A DNA stretch of 64,000 nt from a virus. Position 1 is the first letter of the stretch. Each line of letters opens with the position of its first letter. A program made the translations under genes and the position numbers. This document shows, one piece after another, positions 49,012-56,143 of the stretch. Under the pieces are notes generated by a model. The model worked only from the letters and a program-made list of their open reading frames with translations, was not told the DNA's origin and searched no databases. Location of the stretch: the IMG/VR virus record IMGVR_UViG_3300023174_000003, positions 1 to 64,000 of that record, one strand, 5' to 3'.

Positions 49012-50715
49012 TCAGTTAGATACTAGGTCCTTCTCACGGATCTGTAAAGCTTCTTGGAATATACCTTGATATTTCTCACGTTCTATAGATGTCAATGATC
49101 TGTTACTTGGTCCTGCAATCTGTTCTACATGCATGGTGCCATTGGATACCTTGAGTTGTATTGTGAATACAGGCTTGTTGTCAACCATACATAAGACAAT
49201 GAATTGTTTCTTAGCTTTTATAAGATTGGCATATGTTGATGATGCACCTACACAATTACGTACTGCTTGCCCCCATTGTGCAAGCTGATGAGTATCTATG
49301 GGTTGAATGAATGTCCAGATCTCATCAGCAAGTTTTACTTTGACAGGAACAGGGAATAAATCCTGTGGTAGTTTTTGGTTTGGGTTACTTATCTTCCAGG
49401 CTTCTGCTTGTACATGATCATGGAACTCAGTGTAACGCCAACGCCTAGGCGGAGTAAGTTCTTTACCTGCAGCTAATACATTATTAATCATGTCCATTGT
49501 ATCTCTAAATAAATAGAATGTAAGCATATAACAATTCAGTTGATTATCTTTATGCCTATTACTTGGCTTTTCATCTTCTATATATTTGTTTAGCATATTA
49601 AATAATGATGCCACTGGTAGGTTGGTTGCTAGCCATTTCTTTGCTAACGAATCAGTTTTATAATAAGCGATTGAATGGATACGGCCAATAGATAAAAACA
49701 TATTGGTTTGTATTCCAGTCTGTAAATAATCCATAGGGCAGTCAGGATATATATCAAGGATATCTAGAATCCAAGCCAAAGTATGTATAAGTTTTTTGTG
49801 TATAGAACTAATTTCTTTCTTGGACTTAGTGGCTGGATCATTGAACGTATTAATAATTAATTGACATTGCTCATTGATGTAACGTTTAAACCATGGCTTA
49901 CCAAGTTTCTCTTGCATAACAGTAAATGATCTATCTAAATTTTGGGTATACCGTAGCCTTAGTATTTCTATATACAATTCAAAGCTAGGCACAATGTTTT
50001 GATTCTTTGGTATTGATGTATGATGTAATTCTAATAGTTCATGGTAATTATTTTTAGCCGTATCTATTCTGTCCCATACACCACCATCAGTATAAGTAGG
50101 TATTGAATTTATAATGGCTTCTCTGAATGGTTGTATTACACTTGGTCTTATCTCTTTACCTTTTGTATTGTATCCTTTGAAGTTACCATGTTCCCAATAG
50201 TGTGATTGACATCCATTAGATATATCTTCTGCTGTTACAAACTTTGTATAGACATTGAACTCTATGCGTCCATACTTTTTGATAGTAGTATCTTTTCTAT
50301 TTATGTCTCTAATGTATACCTGTTTGCATGTAGTTTCTGTATTCTTAAATGCATAAGTAAACCCATAGATATAATCTTCACCTGGGTTAGGTAACCATGC
50401 TGCAATCCACAAGGATTCGTAGTGGTACACAACAGCTTTAAGTTTTGTTGTGGCTACCATATCTTTATCATATGTAACACGACTAAAAGTATGATAGCGA
50501 TATGGAACTTCTTCTTGGTTAATAGCAATTATTGCTGCAAGTAAATTGCTAGGCATAACAATGTGTGCAGGGATAATATCATTAGGCAAGCCAAGATGAA
50601 AGCGTGGTTTCTTAGGCTTGCTTACAGGAGTAGTAGCAGCTTTAGCCAAAGCTTTTAACTTTGGATCATAAGCTAATAGTTCTGTGCGCAGGTTGGCGGG
50701 TAGTTGGAATTGCAT
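49012..50715 (-). CDS. PcfJ-like domain protein
   Basis: EFHDH...P.DTHQLAQWGQAVRNCVG...Y......TIQL...VEQI.G..N. Confidence 0.8.
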   Translation of the reverse strand: MQFQLPANLRTELLAYDPKLKALAKAATTPVSKPKKPRFHLGLPNDIIPAHIVMPSNLLAAIIAINQEEVPYRYHTFSRVTYDKDMVATTKLKAVVYHYESLWIAAWLPNPGEDYIYGFTYAFKNTETTCKQVYIRDINRKDTTIKKYGRIEFNVYTKFVTAEDISNGCQSHYWEHGNFKGYNTKGKEIRPSVIQPFREAIINSIPTYTDGGVWDRIDTAKNNYHELLELHHTSIPKNQNIVPSFELYIEILRLRYTQNLDRSFTVMQEKLGKPWFKRYINEQCQLIINTFNDPATKSKKEISSIHKKLIHTLAWILDILDIYPDCPMDYLQTGIQTNMFLSIGRIHSIAYYKTDSLAKKWLATNLPVASLFNMLNKYIEDEKPSNRHKDNQLNCYMLTFYLFRDTMDMINNVLAAGKELTPPRRWRYTEFHDHVQAEAWKISNPNQKLPQDLFPVPVKVKLADEIWTFIQPIDTHQLAQWGQAVRNCVGASSTYANLIKAKKQFIVLCMVDNKPVFTIQLKVSNGTMHVEQIAGPSNRSLTSIEREKYQGIFQEALQIREKDLVSN

Positions 50716-50738
50716 GTGAGTGAATAATGAGTGGGATG

Positions 50739-50767
50739 CAGGCAGTTTAACGTCATGCCTGAGGACG
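50739..50767 (-). promoter_or_regulatory. family-1 element, copy 5
   Basis: CGUC-CUCAGGCAU-GACG-UUAAAC-UGCCUG. Confidence 0.8.
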
Positions 50768-51222: not shown

Positions 51223-51435
51223 TCAGACCTCCTGTAGTTGTTGTGTAGCCACAGCCACTGGCTGCTGAAACGCAGAGCCAGGACCATAGCGTTGGACTAG
51301 ATCTGGGAATGCACCTAGGATACGTTGACGGTTAGTGGGATCAGCATACCGTAGTGCGTTGGCCATAGTACTGACGAACTTGCCGCCGTACTTGGTCATG
51401 GTCTCGGTCATGTGATAAATCTCAGTGCTGGTCAT
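51223..51435 (-). CDS. small phage protein (YGG.FV..LA.A...AD..N...I..AFP type)
   Basis: start reset to the ATG after family-1 copy 6. Confidence 0.65.
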   Translation of the reverse strand: MTSTEIYHMTETMTKYGGKFVSTMANALRYADPTNRQRILGAFPDLVQRYGPGSAFQQPVAVATQQLQEV

Positions 51436-51456
51436 GAGTTGAGTTGCGGTGGGACA

Positions 51457-51485
51457 CAGGCAGTTTAACGTCATGCCTGAGGACG
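51457..51485 (-). promoter_or_regulatory. family-1 element, copy 6
   Basis: identical to copy 7 over 55 bp (51431-51485 = 52817-52871). Confidence 0.85.
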
Positions 51486-52579: not shown

Positions 52580-52821
52580 TGGGCAGCATGAATCTCTGCT
52601 GCTGTAACAGCGGACTCACCTCCGGTGTTGTCATAGAGATACTCAGGTGTTGGGTCATAGCCCGTCACCTCTTCTAATGCATCGATGCAGTCTGAGATAG
52701 TATCCAGCATCCACTGTGGTGCAGAATACATTTGGTCTTTGGCTTCCTCTTGTTTGAGGACAGCGTTCATCTTTTTGATCCAGCGTTCGCATGCGCACTC
52801 TGGAGTCTTGTCTAAAGTCAT
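52549..52821 (-). CDS. hypothetical protein
   Basis: start reset to the ATG after family-1 copy 7. Confidence 0.6.
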   Translation of the reverse strand: MTLDKTPECACERWIKKMNAVLKQEEAKDQMYSAPQWMLDTISDCIDALEEVTGYDPTPEYLYDNTGGESAVTAAEIHAAHWQQHQELHK

Positions 52822-52842
52822 GAGTTGAGTTGCGGTGGGACA

Positions 52843-52871
52843 CAGGCAGTTTAACGTCATGCCTGAGGACG
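52843..52871 (-). promoter_or_regulatory. family-1 element, copy 7
   Basis: CGUC-CUCAGGCAU-GACG-UUAAAC-UGCCUG. Confidence 0.85.
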
Positions 52872-53298: not shown

Positions 53299-53319
53299 GG
53301 TGTGAATGCGATTGGATGT

Positions 53320-53345
53320 CTGCGTTGTAAGGATGCGCAGCCCCC
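53320..53345 (-). promoter_or_regulatory. family-2 leader element, copy 1
   Basis: GGGGG-CUGCG-CAUCCUUACAA-CGCAG. Confidence 0.7.
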
Positions 53346-53353
53346 TGTTAATC

Positions 53354-53737
53354 TTATTTAAGTTGTTGTTTTCTGGTACGTGTACGTGGTACCTTTGCTG
53401 GTGTAGCTACCGGCTCTGGTACATCTGCAACGTACTCTAGATTCCAGTTAGCAATAGTATCTATTGCATTAATAAACTTGCCACAATACTGTGTAAAGCT
53501 TATAACAAATTCTTCGCCGTGGTCAGCTTGCCACTGACGATAGGTCTTGATGCTCCACTGGACCACAGCAATGATTACTGCTGTGATAGTTACCAGTGTC
53601 ATAACAATGTTGTAGGCGACACGTCGCCAATTAACTTTCTGTATCTGTGTCAGTGCATCATCCACTGGTGGAAAGCTGTAGGTCATGTTAGTCATGGTGA
53701 ATCTCCTGTGGGTGTGATTGTAGTTGTGTGATGTCAA
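53354..53737 (-). CDS. membrane hypothetical protein
   Basis: single TM segment. Confidence 0.55.
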   Translation of the reverse strand: MTSHNYNHTHRRFTMTNMTYSFPPVDDALTQIQKVNWRRVAYNIVMTLVTITAVIIAVVQWSIKTYRQWQADHGEEFVISFTQYCGKFINAIDTIANWNLEYVADVPEPVATPAKVPRTRTRKQQLK

Positions 53738-53924
53738 TACCTGCGGCTGCCATTACGACAGTTGCAATAATAAATGTCATCAACACAAAGGTTGTGGCAT
53801 CTAATACTTTGCCGAGCATTTTTGAGCTCAATACTTTTCTAAGCATTTTTAAGTGCATGATAGATTTGCGTTGGTACGAATCAAGTTCAACGTAACGGCC
53901 TACAATTTTATGGTAGTTCTTCAT
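53688..53924 (-). CDS. membrane hypothetical protein
   Basis: single TM segment. Confidence 0.5.
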   Translation of the reverse strand: MKNYHKIVGRYVELDSYQRKSIMHLKMLRKVLSSKMLGKVLDATTFVLMTFIIATVVMAAAGIDITQLQSHPQEIHHD

Positions 53925-54118
53925 TACATTCCATATAGTATGTCACTGTCTTCGTCCTCGTTAATAAGCTCAAATTGAGACCACAAACGATAAGTTTCTA
54001 TAGTGTTTGCAATGCCGTGGGTGTGGCTTGCATATTTTCGTGCTTCATTTATATCGTTAAAACATGTATCAATGTTCTTGTCAACAGGGTGATACACAAT
54101 GTGAACGTAGTTAGCCAT
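53924..54118 (-). CDS. hypothetical protein
   Basis: follows family-2 copy 2. Confidence 0.55.
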   Translation of the reverse strand: MANYVHIVYHPVDKNIDTCFNDINEARKYASHTHGIANTIETYRLWSQFELINEDEDSDILYGM

Positions 54119-54145
54119 TAGATTCTCCGTTGTAGTTGTGAATGC

Positions 54146-54171
54146 CTGCGTTGTTAGGATGCGCAGCCCCC
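54146..54171 (-). promoter_or_regulatory. family-2 element, copy 2
   Basis: GGGGG-CUGCG-CAUCCUAACAA-CGCAG. Confidence 0.7.
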
Positions 54172-54188
54172 TCGTGTTAGATTAACTT

Positions 54189-54490
54189 GGGGTGAAGAAG
54201 AACCGTGTCAGCCCCTTCATACAAGGGAACCAGGATTTTTACGGTCTCTCCTGGTTGGTAACAGACGAGCTGTGCCACTGATCATGGGGCAGCTCCTCCC
54301 TTATCTTAATTCTTGCAGACATGTATAGGGTCAGGACGCAATAGTCCTTCAGCTCGTGCGGCGGGCGCCCTATGCCTGCTACAACTTTAGGTTCATCACG
54401 CCTAAAGAAGTTTGTTGGAACTCTTCTGAGTTCCTAGACGAGTCAACTCCTGGCCAGGAGGGTCAGCTGAACCCTCCAAAGCATAGCAGG
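54189..54490 (+). ncRNA. candidate structured ncRNA (about 300 nt)
   Basis: ORF-free; at least 7 consecutive stems; wobble pairs are G-U on the plus strand. Confidence 0.55.
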
Positions 54491-54495
54491 TTTAA

Positions 54496-54750
54496 CTAAT
54501 CTTCGATGCCATACTCCTGCTCATATTTAAGCAAGAGTGCGTTTCGGTCAACACACTTCTTGAGGAATTGTGCCAATGGATGCAAAGCATCCCACTCTAA
54601 TGCACCGTCTTGCCACTGGAAGTACATCTCCAGTAGCTCGGTACGTTTCTGTTCAATAGACCAATCAACACAAGGGTGTTGAACAGTCGAGTCTCGCCTG
54701 GCAAGCAGACGTGCATCTTTTATGATGCGTTCAACCGTAGCACTGGTCAT
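54496..54750 (-). CDS. hypothetical protein
   Basis: start reset to the ATG after the leader structure. Confidence 0.6.
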   Translation of the reverse strand: MTSATVERIIKDARLLARRDSTVQHPCVDWSIEQKRTELLEMYFQWQDGALEWDALHPLAQFLKKCVDRNALLLKYEQEYGIED

Positions 54751-54755
54751 GATTG

Positions 54756-54831
54756 TGAGTAAGCCACACTCAGTGTGTGGCAATAACTGGACCAGGGTTT
54801 GCACCTGGTCACCCGCTTTAACGGATCAGCT
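54756..54831 (-). promoter_or_regulatory. T-loop three-way junction (54785-54831) plus pseudoknot-like unit (54756-54784)
   Basis: AGCUG-AUCCG(UUAAAG)CGGGU-GACCAGG(UGCAAAC)CCUGGUC-CAGUU then AUUGCCACAC-AC-UGAG-UGUGGC-UUA-CUCA. Confidence 0.7.
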
Positions 54832-54987
54832 TGCTTGACGCATCTCCACTAATAGCTCAACCAGTATCTGGTTGTAACTTTTACTAGATTCTTTGGAGTG
54901 ATATTCTGCTATCACTTGTGCATCATCTAACTCTTTGTTGCTGAAGGTGCCCATAAACTTGAACAGTTGTTCGTAAGTAAGTGTCAT
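54826..54987 (-). CDS. 53-aa hypothetical protein (below cutoff)
   Basis: MTLTYEQLFKFMG...EMRQAS*; its stop lies in the junction stem. Confidence 0.55.
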   Translation of the reverse strand: MTLTYEQLFKFMGTFSNKELDDAQVIAEYHSKESSKSYNQILVELLVEMRQAS

Positions 54988-54996
54988 TAAATTGAT

Positions 54997-55077
54997 GCTG
55001 TGCAGGTGCCCATCTCCTGCGGACTAGGCAATACTGAGTAGGGGATTCGATCCCCCGGCATCACGCCTGGTACTCAG
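54997..55077 (-). promoter_or_regulatory. tRNA-like junction (55034-55077) plus family-3 unit (54997-55032)
   Basis: CUGAGUA..GGC(GUGAU)GCC.GGGG(AUCGAAU)CCCC-UACUCAG then AUUGCCUAGUCCGCAGGAGAUGGGCACCUGC. Confidence 0.7.
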
Positions 55078-55244
55078 AACGGAATCTCATCAAACGACTC
55101 CACACATGAATCAGTAGCTGGATCATCAATGACCCAGCCTTCTTCCTCTGCTTCTGCTTCTAACACCCATTGAGGTGTGTTATTTGCTAACCAGATATCA
55201 TGAAGGAGTTGTTCTTGATGAATGTTGCTAGGTTGAATACGCAT
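55074..55244 (-). CDS. 56-aa acidic protein ending FDEIPF (below cutoff)
   Basis: MRIQPSNIHQEQLLHDIWL...DSCVESFDEIPF*. Confidence 0.6.
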   Translation of the reverse strand: MRIQPSNIHQEQLLHDIWLANNTPQWVLEAEAEEEGWVIDDPATDSCVESFDEIPF

Positions 55245-55254
55245 TTAACTGTGA

Positions 55255-55336
55255 GCTGTGCAGGTGCCCATCTCCTGCGGACTAGGCAATGACTGTGGGA
55301 GGGTTTGCACCTCCCAACCCGCTTTAACGGATCAGC
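55255..55336 (-). promoter_or_regulatory. T-loop junction (55292-55336) plus family-3 unit (55255-55290)
   Basis: GCUG-AUCCG(UUAAAG)CGGGU-UGGGAGG(UGCAAAC)CCUCCCA-CAGU; 36-bp exact repeat of 54997-55032. Confidence 0.72.
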
Positions 55337-55559
55337 AACCAAGCATCTCGTCCACGTAGGACTTGATGACTTGGAGTTGGTCTCGGTTAAGTGTCTGGCT
55401 ACGGCCATACTCCAAAAGGTCAAGGACCTGGAGCATGACGCTTTCGCCAGCCTCTTCACGAGACGGTACGCCACACATGTCGAAGATCTCATTACGAGAC
55501 ATCTCAGTGATGTCAACGCAATCGATCTTACGAACGGTGGCGATGGTGGTCTTAGTCAC
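55332..55559 (-). CDS. hypothetical protein
   Basis: ORF track; its stop lies in the junction stem. Confidence 0.6.
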   Translation of the reverse strand: MTKTTIATVRKIDCVDITEMSRNEIFDMCGVPSREEAGESVMLQVLDLLEYGRSQTLNRDQLQVIKSYVDEMLGC

Positions 55560-55579
55560 GGTGTTACTCCGTAGGTGAG

Positions 55580-55613
55580 CTTGGACTTACACTGCTGAAG
55601 TGCAGCTGCCAAG
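55580..55613 (-). promoter_or_regulatory. family-5 element, copy 3
   Basis: CUUGG-CA-GCUGC..GCAGU-GUAAGU-CCAAG. Confidence 0.7.
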
Positions 55614-55638
55614 ATCGTGACTGACCACCGAGTTGTCT

Positions 55639-55663
55639 GCTGCGTTTAACGTCCAGCTCGACG
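55639..55663 (-). promoter_or_regulatory. family-1 element, divergent copy 8
   Basis: CGUC-GAGCUG-GACG-UUAAACG-CAGC. Confidence 0.65.
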
Positions 55664-55814
55664 CCTAATCTATTGGTGAATCTAGAACCTAACTCTCGTA
55701 CATGAACGAAAGCTACCGATTCTAGCACCACCTAACCTAGGATGATACGTATTCGTATTATAAATGTTACAATACGTGTTAATATCACCACAGGTTAGTG
55801 GTGTGTGGCAACAG

Positions 55815-56084: not shown

Positions 56085-56108
56085 GATTTGAATGCGAGTG
56101 TGTACAAC

Positions 56109-56133
56109 CTGCGTTGCAAGGATGCGCAGCCCC
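56109..56133 (-). promoter_or_regulatory. family-2 element, copy 3
   Basis: GGGG-CUGCG-CAUCCUUGCAA-CGCAG. Confidence 0.7.
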
Positions 56134-56143
56134 CTATATATAC

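What the first reader, a model, noticed from the sequence alone, without database searches (positions are those of the whole stretch)
54189..54490. About 300-nt hairpin-dense candidate ncRNA, antisense to early genes, with a possible kissing-loop three-way junction
Seen: an ORF-free stretch tiled by stems. They include GGGG-UGA/UCA-G-CCCC, AACCAGGA/UCCUGGUU, GAGCUGU/GCAGCUC, CUUUAGG/CCUAAAG, GGAACUC/GAGUUCC and GGAGGGU/ACCCUCC, plus long-range CCUGCUA/UAGCAGG. A junction at 54323-54375 has GUAUAGGGU/GCCCUAUGC enclosing AGGAC/GUCCU and GCUCG/CGGGC, and its loop regions carry complementary CGCA and UGCG. Four non-canonical pairs read as G-U on the plus strand but A-C on the minus strand, indicating a plus-strand RNA. 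TAGATT just upstream could be a -10 box. Function unknown.
Basis: partly seen in the sequence, partly recalled or inferred. Interest (0 to 1): 0.75.

Follow-up and report, generated by a model that had tools for sequence, protein, structure and literature searches.

The report
Self-pairing folded RNA of cyanophages
The 310-base gap between two small early genes of this freshwater cyanophage holds a real, conserved, protein-free folded RNA element made of two modules, with loops that look built to stick copies of the RNA together; its job is unknown and it can be tested in a cultured phage.

Summary
Window 54183-54497 is ORF-free, GC-rich and densely folded, and it is better conserved than the genes beside it.

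- **Host phage.** The phage is a relative of Synechococcus phage S-EIV1.
- **Two modules.** Module 1 (54318-54495) has two adjacent hairpins with self-complementary loops and a three-way junction with two invariant, mutually complementary loops. My covariance models find it in S-EIV1 and in six further uncultured lineages. It sits at different loci and in both orientations relative to neighbouring genes. Module 2 (54183-54322) occurs alone in two other relatives.
- **Covariation.** Compensatory changes support 8 of 19 junction pairs, 5 of 9 hairpin pairs and 15 of 39 module 2 pairs.
- **Self-pairing loop.** The first hairpin's apical 8-mer is a different perfect palindrome in four lineages. 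The changes include adjacent bases that cannot pair within one chain. This is the published signature of symmetric kissing loops in GOLLD and OLE.
- **Best reading.** It is a stable RNA that pairs with copies of itself. This is inferred, not shown.
- **Strand.** The strand is unresolved.
- **Databases.** There is no Rfam match.
- **Earlier scan reports.** This scan had already reported look-alikes in two other windows.

The parts
54318..54495 (-). Module 1: the conserved core of the RNA family (5' hairpin pair, variable hairpins, three-way junction)
   Evidence: Model R1 was built on this stretch and its two close relatives. It finds S-EIV1 at 48.8 bits (E 3e-16) and five more records at 47.7-54.7 bits.
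54482..54490 (-). Helix P1, 5' strand. It pairs with 54375-54383 and encloses the 5' hairpins and the variable hairpins.
Evidence: It is kept in the S-EIV1, G003 and G013 copies with two compensating columns and only G-U departures on this strand (read). It is absent in the T lineage.
54375..54383 (-). Helix P1, 3' strand
54461..54473 (-). Hairpin Pa, a short stem whose apex (54463-54470) is a perfect 8-nt palindrome
   Evidence: The 8-mer is a different perfect palindrome in four lineages. The stem pairs in 100% of cells.
54447..54460 (-). Hairpin Pb, a 5-bp stem closing the invariant loop GGCC (54452-54455), directly abutting Pa
   Evidence: 4 of 5 pairs show compensatory changes and none is broken. 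The loop is invariant in all copies.
54417..54434 (-). Hairpin Pc, lineage-specific, in the variable insertion site
   Evidence: Other lineages carry unrelated hairpins here.
54385..54407 (-). Hairpin Pd, lineage-specific. It has an alternative long-range partner at 54187-54205.
54325..54373 (-). Three-way junction: closing helix P2 (54368-54373 with 54325-54330), arm P2a (54352-54366, loop 54357-54361) and arm P2b (54333-54348, loop 54338-54343)
   Evidence: Of 19 pairs, 94.3% of cells are paired and 8 pairs have compensatory changes. Slid controls give at most 3. Model R2 scores 72.6 bits here and 55.9-75.9 bits in seven other records.
54183..54322 (-). Module 2, a second folded domain fused to module 1 only in this lineage
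   Evidence: Model R3 finds it alone in G005 (29.5 bits, E 1e-5) and, cut by a contig end, in G004. 15 of 39 pairs show compensatory changes.
54267..54295 (-). Module 2 hairpin with loop palindrome TGATCA at 54279-54284
   Evidence: The outer 6-bp stem is fully exchanged in G005 and G004 while the loop palindrome is kept.
54228..54256 (-). Module 2 hairpin with an A-rich 13-nt loop
   Evidence: Two compensatory pairs occur among the three close relatives. The hairpin is kept in G005 and G004.
54213..54227 (-). Module 2 small hairpin
54139..54172 (-). Repeated hairpin motif (family D2) between the element and the next gene. It is not part of the element.
   Evidence: There are three copies in the window, each 15-21 nt upstream of a minus-strand start codon. 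It is missing in relative L005, which keeps the element.
54178..54183 (+).
   Evidence: Present. It reads TAGAAT in L005 and next to module 2 of G005. The consensus promoter scan did not call it.

Best explanation
The gap holds a conserved non-coding RNA element made of two independently occurring folded modules. It belongs to a phage RNA family that is not in Rfam.

I read it as a stable RNA, most likely made from the minus strand. In this phage that is the sense of the early genes, so the RNA would be cut out of, or persist from, the early transcript.

Its working parts are loops rather than coding or antisense capacity:
- Two abutting hairpins each carry a self-complementary loop.
- A third palindromic loop sits in module 2.
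- A three-way junction has two arms ending in invariant, mutually complementary loops.

The most likely mode of action is self-association. The same loop of two copies pairs (a symmetric kissing loop). With two or three such loops per chain, dimers or larger assemblies can form.

Shown here: conservation, module boundaries, helices and the palindrome switching.

Inferred: that it is RNA rather than DNA, which strand is used, the self-pairing, and any downstream role (scaffold, container or decoy during infection).
For: 1. The element is real and under constraint. It is 94% identical to two relatives against 87-88% for the surrounding region. Its 2-nt indels rule out coding. One DNA-run contig matches its exact bounds.
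2. It is a family. R1 and R2 find module 1 in S-EIV1 (KJ410740 40141-40319), G003, G013, G001, three T-lineage contigs and one Lake Lanier contig at 48-76 bits. There is one copy in each record searched with R2.
3. The helices covary: 8 of 19 junction pairs, 5 of 9 Pa/Pb pairs and 15 of 39 module 2 pairs, all far above the slid and shuffled controls.
4. The Pa apex is a perfect 8-nt palindrome in all lineages but with four different sequences. The centres are AGCU, UCGA and UGCA, and the flanks are C..G or U..A. The paired changes include adjacent bases. Kretsch et al. 2025 (PMC12286853, section 8) use exactly this pattern as evidence for symmetric intermolecular kissing loops in OLE and GOLLD.
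5. The loops GGCC, CCGCA and the UGCG-bearing loop never vary while the stems beneath them are exchanged.
6. It behaves as an autonomous unit. In S-EIV1, G003, G013 and G001 it sits at another locus and is inverted relative to the early genes. In the T lineage it lies between ribonucleotide reductase and terminase genes.
7. The minus strand is favoured. P1 has 8 G-U and 0 A-C cells. The T-lineage hairpin has 5 G-U pairs plus a U-G to U-A variant. The Pb closing pair is U-G in the Lanier copy. Module 2 keeps gene-sense orientation in the three lineages examined.
Against: - No transcript, RNA end or strand was observed. The only RNA-library evidence is an unstranded contig over 54245-54424, in a run that also holds other parts of the phage.
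- In the window's own lineage the junction has 3 A-C mismatches on the minus strand, which are G-U on plus. The window's core folds 8 kcal/mol better on plus.
- Over all copies the junction has 7 G-U and 8 A-C cells, so it shows no strand bias.
- Palindromic and mutually complementary loops look the same on both strands, so they cannot tell the strand, nor RNA from DNA.
- If the minus-like strand is the RNA, S-EIV1 and three relatives must transcribe it antisense to their early genes from a promoter I could not establish.
- Self-association rests on four lineages only.
Confidence: 0.5

Rival explanations
1. One reading: a plus-strand non-coding RNA, about 300 nt, started from the TAGATT box at 54178-54183 and antisense to the early genes. 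It could be the same self-pairing RNA on the other strand, or an antisense regulator.
For: - In the window and L004 the junction's closing helix is 9 bp with two G-U on plus, against 6 bp on minus. The window's P2a arm has G-U on plus.
- The core MFE is -69.9 on plus against -61.7 on minus in the window.
- TAGATT with an upstream TG is kept in L004. TAGAAT stands at the same place in L005 and beside module 2 of G005.
- In S-EIV1, G003, G013 and G001 the element's other strand is also the one antisense to the genes, so antisense transcription of this locus type is not excluded.
Against: - The window's plus strand corresponds to the strand disfavoured in the other lineages. P1 would carry up to 3 A-C mismatches in S-EIV1, and the T-lineage hairpin 5.
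- L004 and L005 fold equally well on both strands.
- There is no terminator after the plus-strand 3' end.
- The consensus scan did not call the promoter.
Confidence: 0.2
2. A cis-acting part of the early polycistronic mRNA: a processing, stabilising or insulating structure between cistrons. It would be a large version of the short repeated hairpin cassettes seen throughout this arm, and would not act in trans.
For: - It starts one base after the upstream stop codon and is followed by a repeated leader hairpin and the next gene.
- Several other repeated hairpin families fill equivalent intergenic slots (earlier notes).
- Module 2 is gene-sense and intergenic in the three lineages examined.
Against: - Module 1 is inverted relative to the flanking genes in S-EIV1 and three relatives. 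In the T lineage it sits at the end of a late operon. A cis role in one mRNA would not survive that.
- There is one copy in each record searched with R2, unlike the short cassettes.
- Palindrome switching in loops has no obvious cis explanation.
Confidence: 0.15
3. A DNA-level element: hairpins or cruciforms, or palindromic protein-binding sites. It would serve replication priming, recombination or packaging, and would work in either orientation.
For: - There is no consistent strand bias in wobble pairs or in MFE.
- The orientation flips between lineages.
- Several exact 6-14 nt palindromes are present.
- Mosaic joints in lake populations lie at its borders and at the neighbouring repeated motif.
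Against: - Multi-helix junction architecture with invariant 5-8 nt loops and fully exchanged stems is typical of RNA.
- Some helices are rich in G-U on one strand only.
- A protein site would conserve sequence rather than only self-complementarity.
- In a cruciform the central bases are unpaired and would be free to vary.
- It is not at a GC-skew turning point.
Confidence: 0.1
4. A decayed small gene or a chance GC-rich spacer.
For: In L004 a 76-codon frame with a TTG start runs through module 1.
Against: - That frame is broken by 2-nt indels in the window and in L005.
- It has no ribosome site.
- The element is more conserved than real genes nearby.
- It covaries as helices.
Confidence: 0.02

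Closest known systems
GOLLD (RF01998) and ROOL (RF03087), large ornate RNAs of phages and prophages
   Same: - Phage-encoded, ORF-free, multi-helix RNAs of unknown function.
- They form RNA-only homo-oligomers held by kissing loops.
- Palindrome switching in a loop is the published evolutionary evidence for a symmetric contact in GOLLD, as in OLE (PMC12286853).
- GOLLD, like this element, has a conserved part and a variable part.
   Different: - No match to either model, even at E up to 10.
- This element is much smaller, at 135-310 nt against about 580-800 nt.
- It was not seen next to tRNA genes here.
- Assembly is only inferred for this element.
manA RNA motif (RF01745), found in cyanophages among others
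   Same: A short RNA (under 200 nt) linked to cyanobacteria-infecting phages. It was recently shown by cryo-EM to build decamers and a 60-mer cage through intermolecular kissing loops (bioRxiv 10.64898/2026.07.01.735769).
   Different: - No Rfam match.
- The manA contacts described are between different loops (L5-L7', L8-L9'), not self-complementary ones.
- manA is described as a 5' UTR motif.
phi29 packaging RNA (pRNA, RF00044)
   Same: This rests on my own knowledge. pRNA has a three-way-junction core whose two arms end in 4-nt loops complementary to each other. These loops pair between chains, hand in hand, to make a ring. Here too, two arms of a three-way junction end in invariant 4-nt complementary loops. 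In one lineage the element lies just downstream of the terminase gene.
   Different: - No model match.
- Whether the two loops pair within or between chains is untestable here, because they never vary.
- The host phages are unrelated to phi29.
- No link to packaging is shown.
Retroviral dimerisation initiation site (HIV-1 DIS hairpin)
   Same: This rests on my own knowledge. The DIS is a hairpin loop with a 6-nt palindrome that differs between lineages yet stays self-complementary, and it mediates loop-loop dimerisation. It shows the same logic as hairpin Pa.
   Different: The DIS belongs to a genomic RNA of an animal virus. There is no homology, and here there are two or three such loops per chain.
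Look-alike stretches reported earlier by this scan (e1-5908512, e1-5908522)
   Same: They share 58 of 103 short words with this element. They were described as a conserved, roughly 315-nt, non-Rfam folded RNA with self-complementary loops that also occurs in S-EIV1. My own models confirm the S-EIV1 copy and the self-complementary loops.
   Different: - Placement directly before a leucine tRNA gene was not seen in any copy I examined.
- I additionally find the two-module make-up, the inversion between lineages and the palindrome switching.

Membership tests
Any Rfam 15 family (including GOLLD, ROOL, manA, pRNA, group I intron, tRNA, riboswitches) | Score at or above the family's gathering threshold with its covariance model | tested here: not met
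   There are no matches in the whole window. Over 54050-54560 at E up to 10 there are only two chance-level hits, at 17-19 bits against cut-offs of 60-65. The homologous loci give only an unrelated tRNA 3.5 kb away.
S-EIV1-type phage RNA family (defined here by models R1 and R2) | Three-way junction with arm loops CCGCA and the UGCG-bearing loop, and a closing helix that covaries | tested here: met
   R2 scores 72.6 bits at 54321-54377 on the minus strand. The other records score 55.9-75.9 bits.
S-EIV1-type phage RNA family (defined here by models R1 and R2) | Two abutting 5' hairpins: Pa with a palindromic apex and Pb with loop GGCC | tested here: met
   See, and the sequences.
RNA homo-oligomers with symmetric kissing loops (the kind that includes GOLLD and OLE) | Loop palindrome that changes between lineages while staying self-complementary, including bases that cannot pair within one chain | tested here: met
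   There are four versions of the Pa apex. The criterion is taken from PMC12286853 section 8.
RNA homo-oligomers with symmetric kissing loops (the kind that includes GOLLD and OLE) | Physical multimer of the RNA alone | not testable with these tools
   It needs native gel, SEC, mass photometry or cryo-EM of transcripts.
phi29-type pRNA | Intermolecular pairing of the two arm loops and binding to the portal | not testable with these tools
   The loops are invariant, so there is no covariation to read. No structural or binding test is available.
   Only unstranded contigs from RNA libraries were available. There is no consensus promoter or terminator call. Wobble-pair evidence is mixed and leans the other way.
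Protein-coding gene | Open frame kept among relatives | tested here: not met
   2-nt indels lie between close relatives, and the frame is open in only one of three.

The most novel reading that the evidence does not exclude
The element is a multivalent self-assembling RNA. It would be a compact relative in kind of the GOLLD, ROOL and manA assemblies. Lineages would re-tune it by swapping modules and inserting hairpins at one site.
Probability: 0.3. Interest if true: 0.85.

Novelty: new variant of a known kind. Interest (0 to 1): 0.66.

Why it matters
Natural RNA-only assemblies have only just been recognised (GOLLD, ROOL, OLE, manA), and none has a known job. This element would add a small, modular example. 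It carries unusually clear evolutionary evidence for self-pairing, and it is present in a cultured phage-host pair (S-EIV1 on a polar Synechococcus). Expression, strand, oligomeric state and knockout phenotype can therefore be tested directly.

It also shows that the many ORF-free gaps in S-EIV1-like genomes are not empty.

Tried and rejected
- **Rfam.** Searches at gathering and at permissive thresholds found nothing real.
- **BLAST against phage records.** A search of 50,697 phage records found no match for the region and only chance hits for the element. S-EIV1 was reached only through its DNA polymerase and then by covariance model.
- **Metagenome scan.** The single metagenome-contig scan gave two chance matches inside coding sequence.
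- **Mis-specified patterns.** Two viral contigs patterns were mis-specified by me and could not match even the known copies.
- **Chance hits.** Loci L023, L024 and L025, and nine of the ten genome-contig hits, were chance.
- **RNA libraries.** Two fish-gut metatranscriptome runs hold small parts of the region, including one contig over 54245-54424. They are unstranded contigs and also hold other parts of the phage, so they show neither transcription, strand nor ends.
- **Strand by folding energy.** It was inconsistent between lineages.
- **Strand by unpaired-base composition.** It simply follows the local gene-sense A-richness.
- **Restriction-site idea for the palindromes.** These hexamers are not avoided or enriched genome-wide.
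- **Other ideas.** The promoter and terminator scan gave nothing usable. There are no tRNAs in the window or next to any copy. Group I intron and replication-origin readings were considered and dropped: there is no core match, the flanking genes have their own starts, and there is no skew turning point.

Full report
**Setting**

The window is part of a 79,791-bp virus record with a 127-bp end repeat, so it is a circular assembly. It comes from lake water. Its DNA polymerase is 65.5% identical to that of Synechococcus phage S-EIV1 (KJ410740), the nearest cultured relative. Several small early genes are syntenic between the two.

Genes from about 56,550 down to 18,864 lie on the minus strand. 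Genes from 56,642 onward lie on the plus strand. The finding lies between two small minus-strand ORFs, 54496-54804 and 53924-54118. Neither has a Pfam or PHROG family.

**The observation**

Only a 33-aa ORF (minus strand) and a 47-aa ORF (plus strand) overlap the stretch. Both strands fold better than dinucleotide shuffles by about 2.8 standard deviations. That is modest and strand-neutral.

Two IMG/VR relatives (loci L004, L005) keep the block at about 94% identity, with two 2-nt indels. The surrounding 3 kb is 87-88% identical, and the flanking proteins are 75-84% identical. In a lake DNA run one 313-nt contig spans exactly 54187-54497, with variable sequence on either side. The block is therefore a discrete unit under stronger constraint than its neighbours, and it is not coding. 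A 76-codon frame in L004 is broken in the other two.

**Finding relatives**

BLAST, Rfam and the exact-pattern scans of the large collections gave almost nothing at first.

I tested this claim. A covariance model of the 5' 180 nt (R1) hits S-EIV1 at 48.8 bits, E about 3e-16. Searching the whole records behind my loci, plus one looser pattern scan, added these copies:
- G003, and G013 (a 95-kb complete genome).
- Three contigs of a distinct T lineage.
- With a junction-only model (R2), G001 and a 1.5-kb Lake Lanier contig filed under a bacterial MAG.

There is one copy in each record searched with R2. A complete relative (G004) lacks module 1. No other hit appeared in 185,579 prokaryote genomes at pattern level.

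**Two modules**

Only the first about 180 nt on the minus strand (54318-54495) are shared with those copies. The remaining about 140 nt (54183-54322) were modelled separately (R3). They turn up alone, without module 1, in G005 (29.5 bits, E 1e-5) and, cut by the contig end, in G004. The window's element is thus a fusion of two modules.

**Anatomy of module 1** (minus strand, 5' to 3')

- A short UUAAA lead comes first.
- P1 5' strand lies at 54482-54490.
- Hairpin Pa (54461-54473) follows.
- Hairpin Pb (54447-54460) directly abuts Pa.
- A variable site comes next. It holds two lineage-specific hairpins here and unrelated hairpins elsewhere: one in S-EIV1, none in G003, three in the Lanier copy.
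- P1 3' strand lies at 54375-54383.
- The three-way junction occupies 54325-54373.

Pair counts:
- **Junction.** 94.3% of cells are paired and 8 of 19 pairs have compensatory changes. Slid controls give at most 3, and no shuffle reaches the covariation score.
- **Pa plus Pb.** 100% of cells are paired and 5 of 9 pairs are compensatory among three distinct sequences. A longer version of Pa that competes with Pb fares worse.
- **Module 2.** 93% of cells are paired and 15 of 39 pairs are compensatory. The caveat is that this alignment was fitted to the model.

The arm loops (CCGCA, and the loop ending in UGCG) and the Pb loop GGCC never change, while the stems under them are exchanged.

**The palindromes**

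The apex of Pa is a perfect 8-nt palindrome in every lineage, but the sequence differs:
- The centre is AGCU here, UCGA in the S-EIV1 group, and UGCA in the T lineage and G001.
- The next pair out is C..G, except U..A in G001.

The coordinated changes include adjacent bases and bases two apart. These cannot pair within one hairpin. Kretsch et al. (Nature 2025, PMC12286853, section 8) use this exact pattern (GGCC switching to GAUC or AGCU) as evolutionary proof of symmetric kissing loops between chains in OLE and GOLLD.

Pb carries the invariant self-complementary GGCC. Module 2 has a hairpin whose 6-bp stem is fully exchanged in G005 and G004, while its loop keeps TGATCA. These hexamers are neither avoided nor enriched elsewhere in the genome. 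Self-association of the RNA is therefore the best-supported mechanism, but it remains an inference.

**Strand**

The strand is not settled.

For the window's minus-like strand:
- P1 shows 8 G-U cells and no A-C.
- The T lineage has a 15-bp hairpin with 5 G-U pairs and a U-G to U-A variant.
- The Lanier copy has U-G closing Pb.
- Module 2 is gene-sense in the three lineages examined.

For the plus strand:
- The window lineage's junction has 3 (window), 2 and 1 A-C cells and no G-U on minus.
- The window's core folds 8 kcal/mol better on plus.

Over all copies the junction is balanced, with 7 G-U against 8 A-C. The palindromic and mutually complementary loops read the same on both strands.

Module 1 is inverted relative to the early genes in S-EIV1, G003, G013 and G001. 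There it lies 2.4-3.7 kb downstream of the homolog of the window's upstream gene. In the T lineage it lies after the terminase gene, facing ribonucleotide reductase genes. The element therefore behaves as an autonomous cassette. This argues against a purely cis role in the early mRNA and keeps a DNA-level role alive as a minor rival.

I put the minus strand at roughly 60-65%.

**Known relatives in kind**

There is no membership in any Rfam family. In kind it resembles the phage RNAs GOLLD and ROOL and the cyanophage-linked manA motif. All three were recently shown to form RNA-only assemblies through kissing loops. From my own knowledge, the junction with two complementary arm loops recalls phi29 pRNA, and hairpin Pa recalls the retroviral dimerisation hairpin.

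This scan had already reported look-alikes in two other windows. This report confirms the S-EIV1 copy and the self-complementary loops. It does not confirm the reported adjacency to leucine tRNA genes. It adds the two-module structure, the inversion and the palindrome switching.

**Limits**

- Only about eight lineages could be gathered.
- Collection-wide covariance searches were not possible.
- No stranded reads were available.

Noticed in passing
window 53313-53346, 54139-54172, 56102-56135: A 34-nt hairpin motif occurs three times, each 15-21 nt upstream of a minus-strand start codon. A similar motif precedes the first early gene of S-EIV1. In lake populations, contigs join one copy to sequence after another (joints 53346 to 55668 and 54172 to 55668), so it marks mosaic boundaries.
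   Followed up: partly
window 50713-50767, 51431-51485, 52817-52871; 54779-54830 and 55285-55336; 54997-55032 and 55255-55290: Three further repeated intergenic hairpin families lie in the early arm. The pair at 54779 and 55285 has a fully covarying stem under a constant 7-nt loop.
   Followed up: no
L022 4387-4716 (KJ410740 42386-42715), minus strand: This annotated gap in S-EIV1 lies downstream of the homolog of the window's 102-aa gene. It looks like an unannotated small gene (ATG followed by an open, GC-rich frame), not RNA.
   Followed up: no
L022 1961-2141, L026 1639-1765, L034 about 1979-2105: Next to module 1 in the S-EIV1 group lie a conserved G-run motif (GGGGGTGCAGGGGG) and, on the gene-sense strand, a conserved TTGACA...CTGATAGAC motif just upstream of the next gene. 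This may be a phage promoter or leader. The second motif is absent from the window.
   Followed up: partly
L031 4596-9112: The T-lineage copy sits in a convergent gap. One side holds ribonucleotide reductase genes. The other holds a terminase large-subunit gene followed by small ORFs. This is a different kind of phage region from the early arm of the window.
   Followed up: partly
L052 (RFNU01000068.1, 1,511 bp): A contig binned into a Lake Lanier bacterial MAG carries a full module 1 and is probably phage DNA binned with the MAG by mistake.
   Followed up: no
L043 (reverse strand) 810-1364: In G005, an HNH-type endonuclease gene lies about 140 nt upstream of the free-standing module 2, with a 70-codon ORF filling the space between them.
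   Followed up: no
L034 5534-5619: There is a tRNA-Leu (anticodon TAA) in the 95-kb relative, 3.5 kb from its copy of the element and on the other strand. The window itself has no tRNA.
   Followed up: no
window 54187-54205 with 54387-54404: A 14-bp long-range helix competes with the local hairpins at both places. The one variable position fits the long-range helix on the plus strand and the local hairpin on the minus strand. This may be an alternative fold or chance.
   Followed up: partly
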